Source: Octopus vulgaris
Taxonomy: Eukaryota
Direction of reading: 5' to 3'
DNA: 64,000 nt
Assembly (NCBI GenBank): GCA_951406725.2
Contig: OX597817.1
Coordinates: 103,540,001-103,604,000, forward strand
Position 1 is the stretch's first letter; every line of letters begins with the position of its first letter. The notes under the pieces are model-generated. The model saw nothing but the letters and a program-made list of their open reading frames with translations, had not been told where the DNA came from and made no database searches. The translations under genes and the position numbers were made by a program. This document shows, piece by piece, positions 12,336-62,118 of the stretch.

Positions 12336-13838
12336 TTTTTTTCCTTCTTTCAAATTTGCTTCCATTTCTTGCCGAGTGTCTTCCCGACTCCTAGGGCAAA
12401 GAAACTCATAGTATACATTGGTAGGCCATTAAACCAAACTCAATAGTTCGTTAATTTTTTTTTTTTTTAAGTTAAATTAAAATACATGAGCAGCAACAGT
12501 TCTCACATCGACAATGCTCTTCTCAATACGTGTGATGTACCAGTTAAGACAATCTTTTGCACTTCTTGCAGGGATGGTAAGCCAGGGATCATTCTCATAT
12601 AATTTTCGGTTCCCTTCTTGATCATTCCTAGTGCTCCTACGATCACTGGTATTGTAACCGCCTTGAGATGCCACATTTTCTCAATTTCAATGAGTAGGTC
12701 TTTATATTTTCTGAGCTTGTCAAACTCTTTCGCTGAGATATTATGATCACAGGGGATGCTCATGTCGATCAATAAGAAAACTTTATTGTTTTGGTCTTTC
12801 ACAACAATATCTGGTTTATTGGCCTTGATGGTTCGGTCTGTATGTACTGGAAAGTCCCACAGAATGGTTACATTTTCTCCTTCAGTTACAGCCTCAGGGT
12901 GGTGATTATACCACTTGTCGGCAGTTTTGATATTGTAATGCCGACTTATTAGCCAGTGTAGATATTGGCCAACTCTGTCATGTCTTAATTTATACTCCAC
13001 TGGTGCTAAGACTTTACATCCAGAGATTAGATGGTCCACTGTTTCAATCATGTCGTTGCAGAATCGGCATTTTGGGTCTGCTCCATTTTTCATCACATTG
13101 GCCTGGTAGTTCCGGGTTAATAGGCTTTGATCTTGAGCAGCCAGGATGAAACCTTCGCTCTCTGCTTTTAGCCCTGAGCTCCGTAGCCACTGATGGGTTT
13201 GCTTCTGGTCAACATCAGCTTGTTTGCTGCGGGTCACATATTTGCCGTGCAGAGGTTTCTCCTCCCACCTATCAGCCAATTGCTCGTGCGCTTTTTTCGT
13301 TGCCATCATTTTCGCCTTCTTTGCAACAATAGTTGCCGTACTTCCCTCGGGTTGTTCAGTTTGGGTATCCTGCATGAGATCAATAGCAAATTTTTTGCTT
13401 TCCTTTATGATAGAATGAAGCTTCTTTCGTCTCTCGTGATTTTCCACGAGCTTTAGCATCCAGTCATTCGATATTTCGAGATATTTGGCCAGTCCAATTG
13501 TGGTTGTTTTGTAAGCTAGTTCAAATTGGATCAGGCCTCGACATCCTTGGGCTCTGGGAAGGTAAAGGCGATCTACGTCTGCCTTTGGGTGGTGCATCCT
13601 ATTACAACTCAGCAGCTAGCGTATTTTCCTATCTATATTCTTTACTTCACTCATATTCCAGTTCAACACATTGTAGCTATAAGTAACAACTGGAACTGCT
13701 AAGGAATTTATAGCTAACACCTTGTTACGTGCATTTAGTTCAGATTTCAGGACTGCACGAACTCTCCTATAACATTCCTTCCTGATCTTCTCTTTCATGC
13801 TTGCATGCTGAATACCAGAGCCTTCATTTATCCCTAAA

Positions 13839-13840
<2 letters not shown>
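12336..13840 (-). mobile_element. 5'-truncated R4/Dong non-LTR retrotransposon, young copy
   Basis: ORFs 13616-13840 (KYLG..RVRAVLKSELNARNK) and 12503-13597, 3'UTR to ~12336, with (TAA)n on both sides. Confidence 0.95.
12503..13597 (-). CDS. R4/Dong ORF C-terminal half: RT thumb, CCHC zinc knuckle, restriction-like endonuclease
   Basis: 364 aa open: HPKADVDRLYLPR..GRGL, WLRSSGLKAESEGFILAAQDQSL, CRFC..ETVDHLISGC, RHD, KPDIVV, LIDMSIP, KYKDL, IVGALG. Confidence 0.93.
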   Translation of the reverse strand: MHHPKADVDRLYLPRAQGCRGLIQFELAYKTTTIGLAKYLEISNDWMLKLVENHERRKKLHSIIKESKKFAIDLMQDTQTEQPEGSTATIVAKKAKMMATKKAHEQLADRWEEKPLHGKYVTRSKQADVDQKQTHQWLRSSGLKAESEGFILAAQDQSLLTRNYQANVMKNGADPKCRFCNDMIETVDHLISGCKVLAPVEYKLRHDRVGQYLHWLISRHYNIKTADKWYNHHPEAVTEGENVTILWDFPVHTDRTIKANKPDIVVKDQNNKVFLLIDMSIPCDHNISAKEFDKLRKYKDLLIEIEKMWHLKAVTIPVIVGALGMIKKGTENYMRMIPGLPSLQEVQKIVLTGTSHVLRRALSM

Positions 13841-13902
<62 letters not shown>

Positions 13903-13930
13903 CATTATTATTATTATCATTATTATTATT
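13841..13930 (-). repeat. (TAA)n microsatellite
   Basis: (tta)n with a few tca variants at the 5' truncation point of the R4 copy. Confidence 0.95.
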
Positions 13931-14115
13931 ACCCGGCAAAATGCTTTGGGGTATTTCGTCTGCCGTTACGCTCTGAGTTCAAATTCCGCCGTGGTCGACT
14001 TCGCCTTTCATCCTTTCGGGGTCGATAAATTAAGTACCAGTCAAGTACTGGGGTCGATGTAATCGACTATCTCCTCCTCCAAAACTGCTTCCCTTGAGTC
14101 AAAATTTGAAGCCAT
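13931..14115 (+). mobile_element. SINE family B copy
   Basis: ctctgagttcaaattccgccgtggtcgacttcgcctttcatcctttcggggtcgataaattaagtaccag. Confidence 0.9.
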
Positions 14116-20019: not shown

Positions 20020-20231
20020 GTATGTAAGCCTATTGTAACTAGAGCCATGTCTATTTTTGATACCTCACAACACAGCTATTATTAGATTATGATAGACAGT
20101 TTGAATCAACACAACTATTAATAGATTATGATATGCAGTTTCAGGAGCGTCTATGTGGTCATTTTGATCGGCTAGAAATAGTAACTAAATCTTCCCCTTC
20201 CCCCATCATATCTTACACATTGTGTAATGTA

Positions 20232-21175
20232 TTGAGTTGGCAACTAAGTTTCCCCTGTTTTTTTTAAAGTTTTGGAATTTATTGCGTTTTTAAATTTTGG
20301 AATCTATTTTTTTCGAGAATTCTATTTTTGAATCATTTTGGAATCAATTTTGTTTTTTTTTCTAGTTAATTTTAGTTAATTTTTGTTTATTTTCAGATCA
20401 TTAATTGGGTTCCGCATGTTTTAAGTCACAACAACAAAAATCAACGAGCCACAATCTCCGTTGGTTTGCTTGCTCGTTACCACTCAACTCATGGACACAG
20501 TAAACGATTTCTTTACCGAATCGTTACTGGCGAAGAAAAAATGATGCATGCACATCAATATGAAGCAGCATAAGGAATGGCTTATCCCCAGTATACAAGC
20601 GACACCGCATGTGAAATAAGATCTTCATCCGCGTAAAGCGATGTTGTGCATATGGTGGGAGTGGGAAGGAATTATGCATTAAGAATTGCCCGAACAGAAC
20701 CAAACGGTCAACGCGGAACTCTATGTTCGACAAATAGAACGACTCAACACGGCTATTCAAGAGAAAAGACCTAATCGTCAGCATGGAGTTCTGCTGCTGC
20801 ACGACAATGCACGTTCTCATATCGCCAATAGACCAAGGAAACCATTCAAATGCATGACTGGAAAGTGCTGCCACACACGCCGTACTTTCTTGATTTGGCA
20901 CCAACAGATTTCCTCTTTCGATCTCTTTCAAATACTATGCGCGGAGTTTCGTTCAATACTGATGCAGAATTGAAAGCTTGGTTGGATCAATTTTTCGAGT
21001 CGAAATCGGGTGATTTCTACCAACGAGGTATTGAAAATCTAATTGAATGTTCGGAAGAAGTTGTAAATAACAAGGGTGAATACATTATTGATTAATTAGT
21101 TGTTATTTTTTTTGATTAAACCTTTTTAAAAATTTAACTTTTAAGAAAACAGCGGGAACTTAGTTGCCAACCCAA
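20232..21175 (+). mobile_element. Internally deleted mariner (DD34D; mellifera-like TIR)
   Basis: TIRs ttgagttggcaactaagtttcccctgtttt / aaaacagcgggaacttagttgccaacccaa with TA TSDs. Relics IVTGEEK, LLHDNARSH, PYFLDLAPTDF, GEYIID*. The HTH region is missing. Confidence 0.93.
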
Positions 21176-21774
21176 TACTTCGTGTACATAACGCTTGAAG
21201 AAATATGAGGGTATGTCTGGAATATTTTGATCTTAGTGGAAGAACTTGCTAGAAAACTAAGGTTTGTTAGATGTATAACCCAGTAAAATTATTACTGAAC
21301 TAAAAAAGACTGTACCCTCATAAGAAGATCAATCCAAGAGTAGACAAAATCCAGTGAAAATCAAAAATCAAAAATAAATGGTAAAAGCAACACAACCGAA
21401 GTTAGGATTCAAATGAAAAGCAAACTATTGACAAATGCCCTGGGTTCAGAAAATGTCCGAGAAGAAAGTAATTCCGATAAACTAGCGCTTCTATTGCCAA
21501 ACCTATTCTGTGGTCATCTTCAAAAGATTGAGTTGAAACCAACGGATGTGGAATCTTCGATAATTATCACAACTGCCAAAGTGAGAAATATCGGTTTAGG
21601 TAGGTCATCGGAAATAAGCAGTACTAAATGTCAGAAAATCAAGGTGAAGTTGAAAACCTCTGGCTAGATATGTTCAGTATGTGTTAAGAGATCATGAAAT
21701 GAACTTATCAAAGGTACACGTAATATAACCCAGTAGGGTTACACATGAAACCTAAATAAAGAGGTATCTAAATA

Positions 21775-22966
21775 TCAGGTCATCCCATAAGTTCTGTCCG
21801 AATTTACTTTTTTTAAAATTGAATGAAATTTAATAGTATTTTAGAATGTCTAATAGAATTACAATTTCTTTGATTAAAACCCTTTCTAACATGGAAGTAT
21901 CCAAAGAGCATTTAAGGCACATAATGCTTTATGAGCACAAACTCTGCAGCCGAAGCGACTCGAAACACACACTCAGTTTATGGGAAAGAATGCTTGAATG
22001 AAAGAACTTGCAGAAGATGGTTAGCAAAATTCAGAAGTGGAGATTTCAGCCTTGAAGATGAAGATCGAACAGGACGTCCAGTTGAGTGGCATTACTTGAA
22101 GAAAATCCTGCATTATCAGTTGAAGAATTGGCAATAAAGCTTAGTTCGAACCATACAACTGTTCATCATTATCTTCAACAACTTGGAAAAGTTCCTAAAC
22201 TTGGAAAATGGGTGCCTCATGAATTGTCTGAAAGCGACCGCAAATCCCGAGTTGACATTTGCTCTTCTCTCCATTCTCGTGAACTCATTTCCCCCTTTTC
22301 GGATAGACTTGTGACTGGTGACGAAAAATGGATCTTCTATCGAAATGTTAAACGTCGTAAACAGTGGCTTGGGAAAAGGGAAAAAGCTCAACCACAACCG
22401 TGAAGGGAACTTCATGGAAAAAAGGTTCTTCTCTCTATCTGGTGGGATTGCAAACGAGTAATTCACTTTGAATTGATACTACCTAATGCAACAATCAATA
22501 CTCAAGTCTACTGTCAGCAATTAGAGCGTTTGAACCAAGCTTTAAAGAAAAAAAGATACGCTTTAGTGAATCGAAAAGGAGTGATGTTTCATCAGGACAA
22601 TGCGCGACCACACACTGTAAAGATCACATCACAGAAGATCGAAGAGCTTGGTTGGGAAAAAATTCCTTATCCACCTTATTCTCCCGACCTTGCTCCTTCA
22701 GACTACCATTTGTTTCGTAGTTTACAGAATCATTTGGGGGACATATCTTTCGCAAGCCAGGGGAGGTCGAAACTGACATTTTAGAGTTCTTCGCTTTGAA
22801 ACCAAAAGAATTTTACATTGATGGGATTAAAAAGCTTGTAAATAGATGGAAGGAAGTCATAGATAATCAGGGAAAATACATTGATGATTAAATTTCAATT
22901 CAATATAACATTTGATCACTTGTTTTCTTTATTCAAAATTCGGACAGAACTTATGGGATGACCTGA
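21775..22966 (+). mobile_element. Near full-length mariner transposon with perfect 31-bp TIRs
   Basis: tcaggtcatcccataagttctgtccgaattt at both ends (inverted), TA TSD at 21773-4 and 22967-8. Confidence 0.97.
21891..22891 (+). pseudogene. Mariner DD34D transposase pseudogene
   Basis: MEVSKEHLRHIMLYE, WVPHEL, VTGDEKW, HQDNARPH, YSPDLAPSDYHLF, GKYIDD*. Broken by frameshifts and stops. Confidence 0.95.
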
Positions 22967-22979
22967 TAGTTATTGTTCA

Positions 22980-34090: not shown

Positions 34091-35438
34091 TCTACTATAT
34101 CAAAGTCAATGTCTTTATGTGTTCATGTGTTACTTATACATTCGAAAACTGCTGCACCGATCATAATGAAATTTGGAACACAAAATTCAAGCCTAGGGAG
34201 AAGGGTAATGCTGCGTGCTTCATACAATTTCATGGACCAAAACTATTGACTGGATCCTTATTATATTTGAAACTTACATTCAATGCATAAAGGCGGGTAT
34301 AATGCAATATGTTTGGTTTGAATTTCAGATGGCTTAAAGGGGGAAGAACCCCCATGAAAATTCATCAATTTTCGATGTCGATGAAATTTCAACCATGGGT
34401 AATTGACTCATCAAGAAGTATTCTCAAAGTTTCCACTTCACATGAGGATTCTAAGACACCCTAATTTTGTCGGTTAAAAAATAAAGTGAACTAGCAGAGT
34501 TACCCGGCGTTGCCTGTGTTACATGCAATTGAAGAATTAGACTTTTTCTGTTATATTTTAGTCATTTCTTTTATGATCCAAAACTACGTCAAAAGTACTA
34601 AATGGATCTTTAGGAAATTTGGAAATTATATTCTATGCATAAGGGCCATAACCCCATGAAAATTCATATATTTAGATACAAATGAAGTAATATTTATAAA
34701 ATTTCATCTTCTTACAAGTTACAAAGACCCCTTCATGGGGACTTAACACCCACAATTTAGTCACTTTATCTAAGCAAAGACGAATACAGTCGTACTCTTG
34801 GAAGCCGTAGGTCACCCGAGCATAAAAGATGAGCATTATTTGTAATTCAATGGTACAACAGTGTAAGAGTTTGCTTTGACATACACTTAGATTGTGATTT
34901 CTGCAATGTGCTGCATAATTGTCAAGTAAATGAGAGGTATCTTTGCTTCCACTGATTCAGTTGCAAAGTGTTGAGTAAAGTTATTTTATTGCAAACCTCC
35001 TTTCAGTCTTTTTATTATCACTGGGTCACACATAGTCCCCACATGGTAACATTGATTTCAAGGCCTTCCCAGATGAGTGACTGGTTATTCAAAGACATTT
35101 ATAGATTGCAAATTTATTCTGTCCAGTTACGTATCAGTATAGTGGTCATTTGCAAACTCCAACTTTCATTTCTCCTTAGCCCTCACGTCACACAGTTGTT
35201 AATGTTTATTTCAGTTGGGTCACTGTAATTTTGGAATATGCGCATAAAAATCAGTCGTATGGGATACATGGGGCACGATTACAATTTTTTTAGGGTGTGT
35301 AAAGAGGGGAAATAACCCTCATCTGCAATTTTGATGAAATTCGAAACATAGGTATTCCAGTTCATTACAGAAAATATAACAGAAAAGTCTAATTCTTCAA
35401 TTGCATGTAACACGGGCAACGCCGGGTAACTCTGCTAG
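34091..35438 (+). mobile_element. Non-autonomous Helitron
   Basis: A|TCTACTATAT 5' end, ccgatcataatgaaatttgg internal motif, subterminal GC hairpin (cgggcaacgccggg), CTAG|T 3' end. Confidence 0.8.
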
Positions 35439-35460
35439 TTCATTTTATTTTTTAACCGAC
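34469..35460. repeat. ~90-bp inverted repeat pair (34469-34558 / 35371-35460)
   Basis: Three differences by eye. It includes the Helitron 3' terminus plus ~22 bp beyond CTAG. ATTTT lies on both outer flanks. Confidence 0.9.
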
Positions 35461-35755
35461 ATTTTTTGAAATACTGGGGCTATTATTTTCTAGAAAGTGT
35501 TTTTTCTATCCCACTCAATGTTATGTTGTATAAATTATTATTGTTGTTGTTGTTGGTGTTGGTGTAGTTGTGGTCGTTGTTGTTGTTGTTGCTGCTGTTG
35601 CTGTTTTTATTAGCTGCAAACCCGTTTGCCAAGCAGTGCACTCAGCACTTCGGCCCTGAATATCTCATTATCTACCCACGAAACTAAGCGATGCATTGTT
35701 GTTGTTTGTTTTCGCCCCAGATATATGTCTATATAATTCCTCTCCCCTCCCTCTC

Positions 35756-39071: not shown

Positions 39072-39632
39072 TTTGGTTGAGAATAGAACAAAAATAAGGT
39101 TATATGTATAAATATACAATTACATTGATAGATAACATTTGAAAATGGTTTTGTTTCATTGGTCCTTTCAACTAATAGTCTTTTCAATAACCGGTTATAT
39201 GAAATTACAATTACGATATAAAATCATATTGTTATAAAAAAAATCGAAGAAAACCTTAAATCAAAAATTAGCTTTAGTAGAAAGAAAAAGCCTGTATACC
39301 CAGGGTAAATTAATTGATGGTAAAATAATTTTAATTTTAAATTAATTAAAAAGATAAGTCCTTTTAAACGTTTAAACCCAGTGTATACAGGATTTTTCCT
39401 TCTACTAAATCTAATTTTTGATTTAAGGTTTTCTTCGATTTTTATAATATGATTTTAAATCATAATTGTAATTTCATAAAACCGATTACTACAAAGACCG
39501 TTAATTGAAAGGACCAATGGAACAAAACTATTTTCAAATGTGTATCTATCAGTGTAATTGATAGATACACATTTGATAGATGCACATATAACCTTATTTT
39601 TGCTGCGTTCTCACACATATAACCTTATTTTG
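39072..39632. repeat. ~230-bp foldback (inverted repeat) upstream of the Naiad
   Basis: 39075-39305 matches the reverse complement of 39375-39612 (aaaataaggttatatg, aaatcgaagaaaaccttaaatcaaaaattag, cctgtatac), with a ~65-bp AT spacer. Confidence 0.9.
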
Positions 39633-41290: not shown

Positions 41291-41409
41291 GTATTATTAA
41301 ATAAGTACTGGGGTCGATTCATTCGGTTAAAAATTCTTCATGGTGGTGCCCCAGCATGACCGCAGTCTAATGACAGAAAAAGTAAAATATTAAAGATAAA
41401 ATATTACTC

Positions 41410-41775
41410 TTGAGGGATATTCAAACTCATAGAAAACCCAGCAACACATGTTTCCTTAAAATACCCTATTTTAGCGAGAGGATAACTACATCCATCAGAA
41501 GAGCCATAAGAAGAGAAGGGCTAGACATACAACTAGCCCACTCCGGCCCCTCTCTGAGAAGACACCTCACTAAGAAACGAACAAGGGACAACAATCAATG
41601 TACACTAACAAACTGTCCCATCCGTGACACGCATTTATGCCAAAGGGTTTATGTTGTGTATAGAATACAATGGAACAAATACAAGTTCTATGCGGGTAGC
41701 ACAACAAGACCGTTGCACATCCGCATCAAAGAAGATCTGAACACGAGAGCTTCCTCCTTCAGAAACCATCTAGAC
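41410..41775 (+). mobile_element. PLE GIY-YIG endonuclease fragment with Cys-linker (Neptune-like)
   Basis: LKIPYFSE, CTLTNCPIRDTHLC, VVYRIQ..KFYAGSTTRPLHIRIKE. Confidence 0.85.
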
Positions 41776-41899
41776 GGATATGTAGTTAGGTAGCACTGCT
41801 TCTGCCGTAAGTTCCACCACATTTACTACATGCTATATAAACACCACTTAAGGCCATAAACACACATCCTCGTTGTTCATAAGGTAATTAAGGTGCTGT

Positions 41900-42520
41900 A
41901 TTTGTATTACTATTACGTGTGGGCTGATTCCCAAGTATGCATTTTCTTATGACTAGCCCAGAGTGCGCGAAATGTACACTAAATCCCTTCCTACAGGTCA
42001 CTTCATAGGATACATAAATGATTCTATCTTCAAAGTGTGGCAGTTTCGGTTCATTTGTTTAATCTTACGTACCGGATCTTAGTAGATCACTCTGCTGATC
42101 ATTGTTCCTGCTGAATAGTTTAAACTATCCGTGTCAAGGAGATGGTTTATAATAAATTATCCATTGTGTTTGTTACTAGCTGGTTTGATGGAAGGGTCGT
42201 GCTCATAGATTTCGCAAGTCATCGAAAACCGATGAGGTTGATATGTCATTAATGCTCCTCTTGGACTTCTGTAAGTGAATACTTGCAGGTAAGACATGAG
42301 CAGAGAGGAAATTTCAAGAGGACAGCGTTCTGAGAAAGGAAAGATGTAGTGATTAGTGCGAGCCTAGAAATGGTGAGGAGAAGAGAAACGAATGAGAAGA
42401 GAAATGCTTGAGTTGGGGTGGAATAAGTTCAGCCAACTCCGAGGAGGTTTGATTTGGTAGATTTGTTAATGGAGTTAAAGCTCAAAAGAGAACAGACGAA
42501 ATAAGAAGTGTCTTTAAATG
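41900..42520 (-). mobile_element. Possible decayed PLE N-terminal fragment
   Basis: NLLGVG..IPP and TIKPA..HLLDT relics. Confidence 0.35.
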
Positions 42521-54344: not shown

Positions 54345-54990
54345 TAATGGCAGACCCTCACCTTTCTCAAGAAATGAAGAGGCATGGTTATAAATGCTGA
54401 GCATAGCGATTTAGAAATATCTCGACTTTTAAAAGTTGCCAAAAGTTTGTAAGGAGCGAAGATGGTAACGTATCACCAGTATCAAAGCATAAAAAAAACA
54501 TTCTAAATGCTCTGAAATCATCAGAACACTTGAATTTATCCAGCAAGTTCAACAGACCATTGATTACAATCCAAGAAAGTCCATGAGATCAGTTGCAAAA
54601 TATCTCCATGTATCAGAAGGAACAGTCAGAAATTTTGTCCGCGATGACATCAAATATAAGTTTTATATGATGAGGAAAGATCAATTTGTCAGAAAAGGCA
54701 AAGGAAAATCACTACATCAGATAAAAACGGCTCTTAAACAAACTGAAAAATCCAGCAGAAGAAGATTTGATTTGGTTTTTCTCAAACGAGAAAAACTTCC
54801 ACCAAGATCAAAAAGTTAACAGAAGAAATGACAGATGGTTATGTGCAGACCCTTCTGAATTTCCAAGTGTTATGCATACAAAATTTCCTGCAACTGTCAT
54901 AGTTTTAGAGGTTGTCAGCAATGAAGGACATGTGGTGCCTCCTTACTTCTTTCCACAATGACTTAGAGTTAATTCTGCCGCCTACATTAT
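54345..54990 (+). mobile_element. maT/DD37D-type Tc1-mariner transposase fragment
   Basis: SMRSVAKYLHVSEGTVR, WFFSNEKNFHQDQKVNRRNDRW, TKFPATVIVLEVVSNEGHVVPPYFF. Confidence 0.8.
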
Positions 54991-54993
54991 ACA

Positions 54994-55509
54994 TATTCAG
55001 AATCCCAAACTTTCCATTTTAAAGACAACACGTATTTCATGACAGTATGTCGGTATTTTTGAGATATAAGGTCTCTAGTTTCAATACTCAATTAGATCGA
55101 CGTACTCCTAATCTTCAGGTCTGGATTCATTATTTTTATTCTTATTTTTATTTCGTATTTTTTATTCGTAGTTTTTATTTGTATTTTTTATTCGTATTTT
55201 TTATCCTCTTTTATTCCTTAAATTTTTATTTCTTTACTTTTTAAGGTTCATTCATATTTTTTTTTCTATTTTTATTCATTAATTTGTAAAGTAAAATTAT
55301 GATAACGATTTTTAGTCAAATAATTTCAATCATCATAGAGTTATATAGAATGTAGATAGAGTAATAAATGGGTAGGATCCAGACCTGAAGATTGGGAGTA
55401 CGTTGATTTAATTGAGTATTGAAACTAGAGATCTTATGTCTCAAAAATACCGACATACTGTCATGAAACACGTGTTGTCTTTAAAATGGAAAGTATGGGA
55501 TTCTAAATA
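54994..55509. mobile_element. Foldback element with ~135-bp inverted arms and an AT-rich spacer
   Basis: 54994-55129 matches the reverse complement of 55375-55509 (e.g. tttccattttaaagacaacacg, catgacagtatgtcggtatttttgaga). Confidence 0.9.
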
Positions 55510-55708
55510 GATATAGTAAGTATCATGTTTGATATTTTATGGTTCGGTCGGGTATAATATCTTTCAATGTTGATTGAGTTGAGGGTGGTTCTGTCTCTAA
55601 AACTACTTTTATATATATGAATAAAATATTGAGAGAAGTTCACTTTAGTACCTTCTTTTGAATGCCTCATTCCTGTGGACTCGGAATTAATCTTCCCTAA
55701 TAATCATA

Positions 55709-56984: not shown

Positions 56985-57960
56985 AGTAGGGGAAAACATC
57001 ACGCAGGGCCAACCAAGGAACCCCACAGGAACTTTTTTATTATGGCAAGTGGTCTTTTCTTCCACGTTTTCCTTACTCTATAGGCGCATGCTTAGAGTAA
57101 ATCCATTCAATCGGGCCATTCTCGTTACCTTCACCCATTTTTACAAATTTATTGGGCAAGCACCACCCTCTCCACTCTCACCTTCCTTTCCAAATAGAAC
57201 TTGAAAAATTCGATGAGGGCTTGGCCGAAAAGGAAAGTGTCTGCTTTCAGTACTTTCAGTCGCGTCCGCCACACAGCCTCTTGCGGCGCGGCGATCTTCA
57301 GGATGGTGTCGGCTGAGAGCTGAGTCCATCCTATACTGGATATTAACTGTTCGACATCACAAGTCAGCAATGCTCGAATACTGTACAGTCTATATCTGCC
57401 CATATTTATTTCGGAGTTCTTTCTACTTGGGAGTGTGTTACTGCTTCTAGGTTTCAGGGTTTCGCCAACTCACGGCAATGCAGCACCGTCTTCCGTGCAT
57501 TTACCGCCAAAACTTCCGCTGGGATTGCAAATTGTGCTCTCCTTTTATTCACTTTCACAAGTTGTGCCACTTGAGTCAGGTGTGCCTCCTTGTCGTTTAG
57601 GGAGAGCATGAAATATTGTGCTGGTTTTTTCCACCATTCCAAGAAAAGATAACCTACCCTTGGAATCGTCACCTACTTACTTTGTCCTCTTCGTTATTCT
57701 TGGTGCTGCTGATGCCTTTGTTGCTGTTGGTGGTGGTGACTTTGTTGTTTGTGCAAATGTTCTCGTTGTTAAAAACATCTTTACAATTGCTACTGTTGTC
57801 GTTTCCATTGCTGTTTATTATTGTTCTCGAGAAAATGCTCTTTAATGAAGTTCTTGTAAAATGAATCGTTCTTCTTGCTACTTCCTCATTGAATCTTATA
57901 TTACTAATACCAAAATTCCAACAAAGTAGAAAGATAGAAACAGAGAAGAGCATATAAAAT
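56985..57960 (-). mobile_element. Internally deleted Tx1-clade LINE
   Basis: ORF 57149-57403 (VEQLISSIG..LSAD..VWRTRLKVLKADTFLFGQALIEFFKF) is homologous to 17628-17909. The upstream N-rich segment is ORF1-like (weaker). Confidence 0.65.
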
Positions 57961-58090
57961 ACCACAAAAGTCGTATTACCGTGTGACGTAGGGGTCCTTA
58001 TTCAAAGTTTTAACGAAAATTCACAACAGTAAATATATTAGCTATATTAAATCTCTGAGCGAGATATAAACAGTAGCAATACAGAATCAC

Positions 58091-58523
58091 AACATATAAT
58101 TACTAGCCAAGAGTGGTGTTCTTTACAGGGCAGTGCTACTGACGTTTATAGCCCCAGGGAAACATCTTTTCCAACTGGCTAACGCACACATTCTGTGTCC
58201 GATTAGTATTTGCGAGATTTAATATAGCTTATTTCCCCTTTTTCGAGATCAGCCACAGTTTGTCGCTGCAAACGCATATAGTATTTTGCGAGTGGAATGA
58301 GTTTTCATCATTACCTGGTGATTAGCACACGCTGAGGACGGGTAACCACCCAGAAACTCGAGTCTGTGTGTATCACAATGGGAGCGATGGCCTCCCTTCG
58401 CAAATACTAATCGGACACAGAATGTATGTCGTTAGCCAGCTGGAAGAGATGTCTCCCTGGGGCTATAAACGTCAGTAGCACTGTCCTGTATAGGACGTCA
58501 CACTTAGTTGGCAATTATATGTT
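58091..58523. mobile_element. Foldback element (~125-bp inverted arms) enclosing a hammerhead ribozyme
   Basis: 58091-58215 vs the reverse complement of 58398-58523. The inner ~90 bp are highly similar; the outer ~35 bp are colinear but diverged. Confidence 0.9.
58325..58371 (+). ncRNA. Type I hammerhead ribozyme (PLE-type), apparently intact
   Basis: gcacacg CTGAGGA c GGGT aacc ACCC a GAAA CTCGAG TC tgtgtgt: 7-bp stem I, 4-bp stem II, palindromic ACTCGAGT stem III, GUC cleavage after 58364. Confidence 0.85.
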
Positions 58524-58615
58524 TCTAGTAAATATATTCTTTTCAACAAAATATAATAAAAGTTCGGAACCGACAAGACTTACGTCCAATTCAAACGATA
58601 ATGATAATAAAGCGT

Positions 58616-60848
<2,233 letters not shown>

Positions 60849-60876
60849 ATAATAATAATAATAATAATAATAATAA

Positions 60877-62118
60877 GGATCGATTACCGAAAGGCTTTCG
60901 AAAGTATTCTCTACACATGGATCCTAGAAACACTAATCATGATCAAGGTAGTACCAATAATCATAAAATATATAACGCATCCCATGAATAAATGGCAGAC
61001 AGTGCTACAGCTCCAGACAAAAGCGGGACTCATATAAACCAAAGCCAACCCCATTAGAAGAGGAATATTTCAGGGAGACACGCTCGCTCCATTCCTTTTC
61101 TGCTTGGCACTGACATCTTTATCTGACATGCTAAACAGAAATGGATGTGAATATAACTGTTACTGCAAAACAATCAGCCACCTCTTATATATGGATGATC
61201 TAAAACTGTACGCTACAAATGATAAACAGCTGGAAACATTACTACAAATAGTATATGGATTTACCAAAGAAGTAAACATGAAATTTGGCTTAGAAAAATG
61301 TGCCAAAGCAACCTTGAAAAGAAGAAAACTAGTTAAGAGTAGCAACATCACAGTAGATAAAGCAAATGAAATAAGAGAATTAGACCCAAGCCAGACATAC
61401 GAATACTTACGAACGCGTACAAGCTTCCACATGTGAACAAATCAAACTTCGAAGGCACGGTATTTAAATGACTTTCACAAAAGATGCAACAAACCGTGGA
61501 AGGGAACGGTTGTGCTCGGCGATAATACTGTGAAGAGAAAAGGAATAGCGGTGAATTTCATTACATGAGCTTCGAGTAACGCGATACGAAAGAAGCATCA
61601 GCACACATCCAGAGACGGTGTTCTGTCAAAAGGTTAACGCTGCCCAAACGGAATACAAAACATAAAAGAGAACGATGGGCAGATGACGACTACATTAAAC
61701 TGATATATGCATTCAATAATGCAACACTATATCCAAAACATAGAAATAAAAAAAAGAAACATATGGGATAGGGAGGAAAAACAATAAAGATATCAGGAAA
61801 TTGCGAACGTAAGAGGATATATATCTTACGAGAATAGAATGTTCCCAAAACAGAAATAGAGAAACTCAAACAGTAAATATCCAATAAAATGAACCCCCGT
61901 AACTGTACCCTACATATCCAATACCCAACAGAAGATCACGGCTCGCATACAATACAAACACTAATATAACAAATGACTCAAACCAAACACCATAACAAAA
62001 CATACTGATGCAACACAAAAAAAGAAAGAACATACAATGCTGCACACACCTCAATAGCACAGAAGTGTAGAAAGTGACGCAGCAGAAATTTACTTGAAAC
62101 TATCAGATGTCAAAAAAT
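60877..62118 (+). mobile_element. Rearranged R4/Dong pieces: RT core, N-terminal remnant, 3'UTR
   Basis: IDYRKAF, RRGIFQGD, ISHLLYMDDLKLY, FGLEKC (60877-61410); KRERWADDDYIKLIYAF (~61665); 3'UTR shared with 15320-15552. Confidence 0.85.

What the first reader, a model, noticed from the sequence alone, without database searches (positions are those of the whole stretch)
58091..58523. Hairpin-framed hammerhead: a ~430-bp non-coding foldback with an apparently intact ribozyme in its loop
Seen: ~125-bp inverted arms enclose a loop containing gcacacg-CTGAGGA-c-GGGT-aacc-ACCC-a-GAAA-CTCGAG-TC-tgtgtgt, which has the type I hammerhead core and all three stems. There is no adjacent PLE ORF. Established: minimal hammerheads with a palindromic stem III mark Penelope-like element pLTRs, are thought to cleave as dimers, and also define non-autonomous retrozymes; PLEs often form inverted pLTR arrangements. 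Inference: this may be a non-autonomous, ribozyme-bearing foldback retroelement that repeat annotators would file as a MITE. Its transcript would be a long dsRNA stem that self-cleaves in the loop.
Basis: partly seen in the sequence, partly recalled or inferred. Interest (0 to 1): 0.8.

Follow-up and report, generated by a model that had tools for sequence, protein, structure and literature searches.

The report
Octopus retrozyme insertion with inverted end
The hairpin is one old insertion of an abundant, roughly 356-base ribozyme-carrying jumping repeat, and its mirror-image arm is the usual by-product of how Penelope-type elements insert, so this is a new example of a known kind and not a new foldback element.

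Summary
In detail: arms 88% complementary, and a type I hammerhead core with predicted cut after C58364 (1 hit in the window, 0 in 300 shuffles). The unit, however, is not arm-ribozyme-arm. Contigs of four public runs show a high-copy family whose right arm is continuous with the ribozyme segment and runs on through a 35-nt stretch back into the unit's start: a closed, ORF-less unit of about 356 nt, a non-LTR-retrozyme-like repeat. The locus (58040-58526) is one direct copy plus a 5'-truncated copy joined head-to-head, with a tail on one side only and a candidate 12-bp target duplication. This is the published anatomy of Penelope-like insertions. None of 32 listed contig pieces bridges this inversion junction; another copy inverts elsewhere. 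This copy is decayed: 11 nt of stem I extension are missing and it is predicted to misfold. Cleavage, circular RNA, full tandem dimers and the helper element were not shown. The scan reported similar inverted hammerhead insertions in two other genomes. New member of a known kind.

The parts
58028..58039 (+). Left copy of a 12-bp direct repeat, candidate target-site duplication
   Evidence: Exact match to 58527-58538; 6 of 4000 window controls and 12 of 20000 shuffles reach 12 bp. Caveat: three runs carry an extra 18-nt near-tandem copy of the adjacent flank.
58040..58055 (-). Outer 3' end of the inverted copy: the first 16 nt of the next unit (inverse of 58214-58229)
   Evidence: Inverted repeat I3. 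Loose ends with mixed flanks at 58043 (26 contigs X1, 19 X7); ends at 58040 continue as unit sequence (23 X1, 40 X10).
58056..58090 (-). 35-nt stretch that links unit end to unit start; with 58040-58055 it forms the one-sided tail (48-51 nt)
   Evidence: Matches the letters between 58523 and 58214 in tandem-junction contigs (table 5c; 28 of 35 by eye for the X1 row).
58091..58215 (-). Inverted, 5'-truncated copy of the unit's 3' part (left arm)
   Evidence: 9 listed differences from the family majority are private to this arm.
58214..58523 (+). Direct copy, 310 of about 356 nt of the unit; no stop-free frame above 60 codons
   Evidence: Joint 58523 to 58214 'goes back 310' in 3, 3 and 2 contigs of X1, X7, X10; frames.
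58318..58376 (+). Type I hammerhead ribozyme motif; predicted cut after C58364
   Evidence: Listed family variants fall at N7 (58336), loop II (58347) and stem I (58365, G.U to G-C).
58376..58377 (+). Site of a net 11-nt loss relative to the family; the lost piece could extend stem I
   Evidence: Loose-end consensus at 58376 in X1, X7, X10 and repeated 11-nt gaps in pieces; pairing with family letters at 58311-58315 read by eye.
58398..58523 (+). Right arm: 3' part of the direct copy, holding a TATA-like motif near 58464
   Evidence: 15 of 32 listed pieces run from the hammerhead segment across 58398 into this arm. Promoter function not tested.
58527..58538 (+). Right copy of the candidate target-site duplication, 3 nt after the arm
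   Evidence: depth falls to single-copy level from 58537.

Best explanation
A single, old insertion of an abundant non-autonomous repeat whose unit is a closed loop of about 356 nt (310 + 35 + 11) with one type I hammerhead: a non-LTR-retrozyme-like derivative of a Penelope-like element (PLE) end, in an octopus-like genome. Shown: unit closure, abundance, insertion anatomy. Inferred: tandem copies are transcribed; hammerheads, probably paired through the palindromic stem III, cut the RNA to monomers that may circularise; a PLE reverse transcriptase/GIY-YIG protein acting in trans nicks AT-rich DNA and primes cDNA at two sites about 50 nt apart. One cDNA became the long direct copy, the other the short inverted copy with the tail; they joined head-to-head at a 2-nt overlap (58214-58215). 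The direct copy reads through the cut site, so its template was uncut multimer or re-ligated circle. The hairpin is a by-product of integration, and this copy has since decayed.
For:: summed depth over the element is about 160 to 5600 times the flank in three runs (ratios; the tool warns this is no copy number); joint 58523 to 58214 in 8 contigs of 3 runs; 30 X10 contigs continue upstream of 58214 into the tail, not the arm; 0 of 32 listed pieces bridge 58214; X10 record 12 is a head-to-head inversion with other breakpoints. Candidate 12-bp TSD. Both arms share one letter (58455/58159) that differs from the family majority (weak). Same anatomy published for PLEs: PMC3846280, PMC8557442; two RT start sites and the tail: PMC11167929. 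Size and 2-bp stem III match invertebrate retrozymes: PMC7229834. A PLE-type GIY-YIG fragment lies in the window, 80-83% identical to Octopus proteins, one with RT plus GIY-YIG.
Against: No contig with two complete units in tandem was seen; only the junction. No helper PLE sharing this end was found: the window's PLE fragment shows no significant DNA or protein match to the element. The tail is 48-51 nt against 30-40 nt in the papers. Only 32 of 8391 pieces, 40 of 216 variant rows and a small part of the joints and loose ends were shown. Rfam did not recognise the motif. The direct copy folds only slightly better than shuffles (z -1.5), where retrozyme circles are described as highly self-paired. 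The left arm carries 9 listed private changes against 2 on the right, unexplained. No empty site was seen.
Confidence: 0.72

Rival explanations
1. Stump of an autonomous PLE: direct plus inverted pseudo-LTR with the ORF lost by 5' truncation; no independent retrozyme life cycle.
For: Identical insertion anatomy. Depth rises towards the 3' end as expected from 5' truncation. PLE proteins exist in octopus. 944 loose-end rows were not shown and could hold an ORF-joined class.
Against: Sequence upstream of 58214 is the unit's own tail and sequence beyond the tail is the unit's own start, in three runs. No PLE coding match in the element.
Confidence: 0.17
2. One reading: arm-hammerhead-arm is itself an amplified foldback retroelement whose transcript is a self-cleaving hairpin.
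For: Very stable hairpin. Left junction shared with runs X1 and X7, so the structure has persisted. Most pieces were not listed.
Against: 0 of 32 listed pieces bridge 58214; listed loose ends at 58214 go into the tail; another inversion has other breakpoints. Arms differ by 12%. The active fold lies 9.7 kcal/mol above the predicted minimum, also in the whole insertion.
Confidence: 0.07
3. An ordinary TIR MITE into which an unrelated hammerhead segment inserted.
For: Long inverted arms with flanking direct repeat; other TIR elements lie in the window.
Against: 15 of 32 listed pieces join hammerhead segment and arm in other copies; the left arm runs on asymmetrically for 51 nt.
Confidence: 0.03

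Closest known systems
Animal non-LTR retrozymes (Cervera and de la Pena 2020, PMC7229834; Li, Clavereau and Pollet preprint 10.64898/2026.07.22.740005)
   Same: Non-coding unit of about 356 nt (mussel units 350-390 bp), one type I hammerhead per unit, 2-bp stem III with tetraloop, head-to-tail junction, candidate TSD longer than 4 bp, PLE in the same genome.
   Different: Seen here as a dispersed monomer with an inverted partner; full tandem arrays, cleavage and circular RNA not shown. No octopus case surfaced in my searches.
Endonuclease-bearing Penelope-like element insertions with inverted pLTR and tail (PMC3846280, PMC8557442, PMC11167929)
   Same: Head-to-head inverted 5'-truncated copy, one-sided tail, AT-rich target, TSD-sized direct repeat, hammerhead upstream of the 3' end, TATA-like motif.
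   Different: No RT/GIY-YIG ORF; the unit closes on itself; tail 48-51 nt rather than 30-40; hammerhead fuller than the minimal PLE type described in PMC6155905.
TIR MITEs / foldback DNA transposons (from general knowledge, no call)
   Same: Looks like long inverted arms around a short core.
   Different: Arms are unequal in extent, arise from one end of the unit, and the junction is not seen to recur.

Membership tests
Type I hammerhead ribozyme | Core CUGANGA / GAAA / UH with stems I-III, stem I open | tested here: met
   0 hits in 300 shuffles. Stem II base has unpaired C and A instead of a direct pair.
Type I hammerhead ribozyme | Match to an Rfam hammerhead model | tested here: not met
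   0 matches.
Type I hammerhead ribozyme | Structure-preserving variation among copies | tested here: inconclusive
   Of 40 shown variant rows, 3 fall inside the motif: N7, loop II, G.U to G-C; none in the invariant core. 176 rows not shown; no alignment of copies, so no covariation test.
Type I hammerhead ribozyme | Self-cleavage | not testable with these tools
   Folding only: active fold +9.7 kcal/mol as monomer, +5.7 as double hammerhead; 0.0 as dimer with the two family letters; 15 unrelated natural motifs gave 3.5-13.5 and 0-20.1.
Non-LTR retrozyme | Non-coding unit of 150-450 nt with one type I hammerhead | tested here: met
   310 + 35 + 11 = about 356 nt; longest stop-free frame 60 codons, no PLE match.
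Non-LTR retrozyme | Tandem repeats with at least two complete units | tested here: inconclusive
   Head-to-tail junction in 8 contigs of 3 runs; no complete dimer listed.
Non-LTR retrozyme | Multi-copy in the genome | tested here: met
   2105-2901 records laid per large run, most under 95% alike; depth far above flank.
Non-LTR retrozyme | Expressed as linear and circular RNA | tested here: inconclusive
   One run guessed to be RNA (X23) holds family pieces; it may be DNA, and contigs cannot show circles.
Penelope-like element insertion | Head-to-head inverted 5'-truncated copy | tested here: met
Penelope-like element insertion | Tail on one end only (30-40 nt in the papers) | tested here: met
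   One-sided extension 58040-58090, but 48-51 nt long.
Penelope-like element insertion | Target-site duplication | tested here: inconclusive
   12-bp direct repeat; no empty site; flank has an 18-nt near-tandem repeat in other runs.
Autonomous Penelope-like element | RT plus GIY-YIG ORF next to the pLTR | tested here: not met
TIR MITE / foldback family | Fixed arm-core-arm layout recurring among copies | tested here: not met
   0 of 32 listed pieces bridge 58214; 8359 pieces were not shown.

The most novel reading that the evidence does not exclude
The locus is a footprint of a Penelope protein copying a retrozyme RNA circle from two priming sites: the direct copy crosses the ribozyme cut site and stops within 16 nt of where the other cDNA began, exactly one circle length away. 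If direct-copy 5' ends pile up at that point genome-wide, this family gives anatomical evidence that animal retrozyme circles are integrated by PLE machinery, and thousands of natural products with which to work out how PLE inversions and tails form.
Probability: 0.25. Interest if true: 0.65.

Novelty: new member of a known kind. Interest (0 to 1): 0.33.

Why it matters
It adds a probable retrozyme family in an octopus-like genome and shows that its copies carry the insertion marks of Penelope-like elements (inversion, one-sided tail). The link between the two has been argued from co-occurrence and phylogeny in the preprint parts that I read; insertion anatomy is an independent line. It also warns that such hairpins can be mis-filed as MITEs. 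The hairpin itself is probably an inert fossil.

Tried and rejected
No whole genome is held, so no genome-wide count was possible. Rfam: 0 matches. ARAGORN: 0 genes in the window. No second copy of arm or loop in the window. Arm pattern in metagenome contigs: 0. No RNA holder listed; X23 has no cover on most of the single-copy flanks, which says nothing about expression. Earlier notes by sequence and by place: none. The window's PLE fragment as parent of the element: no significant match. DIRS-like reading (inverted ends plus internal complementary region; recalled, no call): dropped because the 16-nt repeat is explained by the unit's closure. The dimer energy was mis-specified and was redone. 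One search fetched an unrelated paper from a mis-recalled id; the 2014 paper on PLE hammerheads was not seen. The supplement of PMC7229834 could not be read and may list cephalopod repeats. Four X10 contigs ending at 58364 are a hint only.

Full report
Observation. The arms are at 58091-58215 and 58398-58523, 88.1% over 126 columns, with 14 mismatches and one gap. The region folds at z = -22.0. The loop holds a type I hammerhead motif: core 58332-58338, a 4-bp stem II with an unpaired C and A at its base, GAAA, an 8-nt palindrome giving a 2-bp stem III, predicted cut after C58364, and a 7-bp stem I extended by a bulge and 5 bp. A descriptor written around this motif gives 1 hit in the window and 0 in 300 shuffles. 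Rfam does not recognise it.

Host. No genome is held. A GIY-YIG-type fragment at 41386-41790 is 83% and 80% identical to two proteins named from Octopus bimaculoides; one has RT and GIY-YIG domains, both below Pfam's curated cut-off. So the host is octopus-like and carries PLE-type sequence. That fragment shows no significant match to the element.

The family. 20 of 24 listed runs, under five organism labels, hold part of 57960-58600; none holds half its words and none is on record as RNA. I laid 4 of the 24 (X1, X7, X10, X23) at 80% likeness. Summed depth over 58041-58505 is about 160 to 5600 times the single-copy flank in the three large runs, which the tool says is no copy number, but it shows a high-copy repeat with edges near 58040 and 58530. 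Contigs go from 58523 back to 58214 (3, 3 and 2 contigs in X1, X7, X10; 0 in X23) with 34-38 letters between, which match the reverse complement of 58056-58090 (28 of 35 by eye for the X1 row). Thirty X10 contigs continue upstream of 58214 into that same stretch, and 23 X1 and 40 X10 contigs continue beyond 58040 as the unit's start. The family also has a net 11 nt more at 58376. The unit is therefore a closed loop of about 356 nt with no long frame. Loose ends with mixed AT-rich flanks at 58043 (26 X1, 19 X7 contigs) mark a common 3' end.

The locus. It is a direct copy (58214-58523) and, head-to-head with it, a 5'-truncated copy (58215 down to 58040) that runs 48-51 nt further: a tail on one side only. 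Of 32 listed pieces, 15 join the hammerhead segment to the right arm and 0 bridge 58214 by 31 letters on each side; 8359 pieces were not shown. X10 record 12 is another head-to-head inversion with other breakpoints. So arms are not terminal inverted repeats of a fixed element. The left junction is bridged by single-copy contigs in X1 and X7 (37-38 letters into the element); the X10 contig reaches only 23 letters in, short of the tool's criterion. Of 12 arm sites checked against family majority letters (I dropped two low-share rows at the indel and three tail rows), 9 are private to the left arm, 2 to the right, and 1 is shared by both. The shared site fits one template but could be chance; the asymmetry is unexplained.

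Ribozyme state. Among 40 shown variant rows (176 not shown) those inside the motif are N7, loop II and a G.U to G-C change in stem I. Family letters at 58311 and 58314 could pair with the piece that this copy has lost, extending stem I (read by eye). For this copy the active fold is 9.7 kcal/mol above the predicted minimum, alone or in the whole insertion; as a double hammerhead 5.7; with the two family letters 4.9 and 0.0. Fifteen unrelated natural motifs with the same palindrome gave 3.5-13.5 and 0-20.1, so these figures rank this copy as poor but do not prove inactivity; tertiary contacts are not modelled. The direct copy alone folds at z = -1.5.

Mechanism. Shown: closure, abundance, anatomy. 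Inferred: transcription of tandem copies, cleavage (probably as paired hammerheads), possible circularisation, and integration by a PLE protein in trans from two priming sites. The direct copy crosses the cut site, so its template was uncut or re-ligated RNA. Its 5' end lies within 16 nt of the other copy's 3' end, one unit length away, which a circular template would explain; one locus cannot separate this from chance.

Literature. PMC3846280 (passages): inserts flanked by inverted pLTRs, 8-10 bp TSDs, a 31-bp tail on one pLTR, head-to-head as the most frequent arrangement. PMC8557442 (passages and section 15): inverted 5'-truncated copy and 30-40 bp tail. PMC11167929 (parts 1-2 of 4): two RT start sites define the tail, AT-rich cleavage, hammerhead cleavage not needed in vitro. 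PMC7229834 (passages, sections 13 and 14; supplement unreadable): retrozymes of 150-450 bp, mussel units 350-390 bp. Preprint 10.64898/2026.07.22.740005 (parts 1-3 of 5): retrozymes as non-autonomous PLE derivatives; 1 of 9 tested elements cleaved. PMC6155905 (passages): PLE hammerheads usually minimal. Searches for an octopus or cephalopod case and for a foldback form listed nothing that describes this family, judged from listings; repeat databases and most subscription papers were not searchable, so it may be catalogued. Two earlier notes of this scan describe similar inverted hammerhead insertions in other genomes; they are unchecked and gave me the lead to PMC3846280.

Verdict. Real, and a new member of a known kind: it works like a PLE-mobilised retrozyme; membership rests on size, closure and motif, while tandem arrays, cleavage and circles remain untested. 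Interest 0.33.

Noticed in passing
window 41386-41793 (+): Decayed Penelope-type GIY-YIG fragment, 80-83% identical to Octopus-named proteins; a weak opposite-strand match at 41771-42046.
   Followed up: partly
window 58018: Single-copy contigs of X1 and X10 carry an extra 18 nt that nearly repeats the adjacent flank, and the X7 piece has an 18-nt gap; the window lacks it.
   Followed up: no
window 58364: Four DNA contigs of X10 leave the element at the predicted cut site (or one base later) into unrelated AT-rich sequence.
   Followed up: no
window 58380-58398: The inverted copy begins at the 3' foot of a small hairpin, and several joints fall at 58397-58401; an RT stall site or an alignment effect.
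   Followed up: no
window 54988-55515, 34468-35461, 21769-22972, 20229-21178: Other inverted-repeat-flanked elements; 21769-22972 encloses frames that look like mariner transposase (recalled, not searched).
   Followed up: no
window 39078-39613: 536-bp near-palindrome, 78% self-complementary; my hammerhead scans found no motif there.
   Followed up: partly
L014, L015, L022, L024, L043, L047, L056, L061, L072 and others: An unrelated hammerhead repeat family with the same stem III palindrome, about 1.09-kb period in L022, and inverted end pieces at similar places in four copies.
   Followed up: partly
L003: Two hammerheads in tandem 662 nt apart, 100% identical over 613 nt; possibly a circular or tandem retrozyme-like unit.
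   Followed up: no
window 12503-13978, 58744-61436: Fragments of non-LTR retrotransposons next to AAT microsatellites (Pfam RVT_1 and zf-RVT hits).
   Followed up: no
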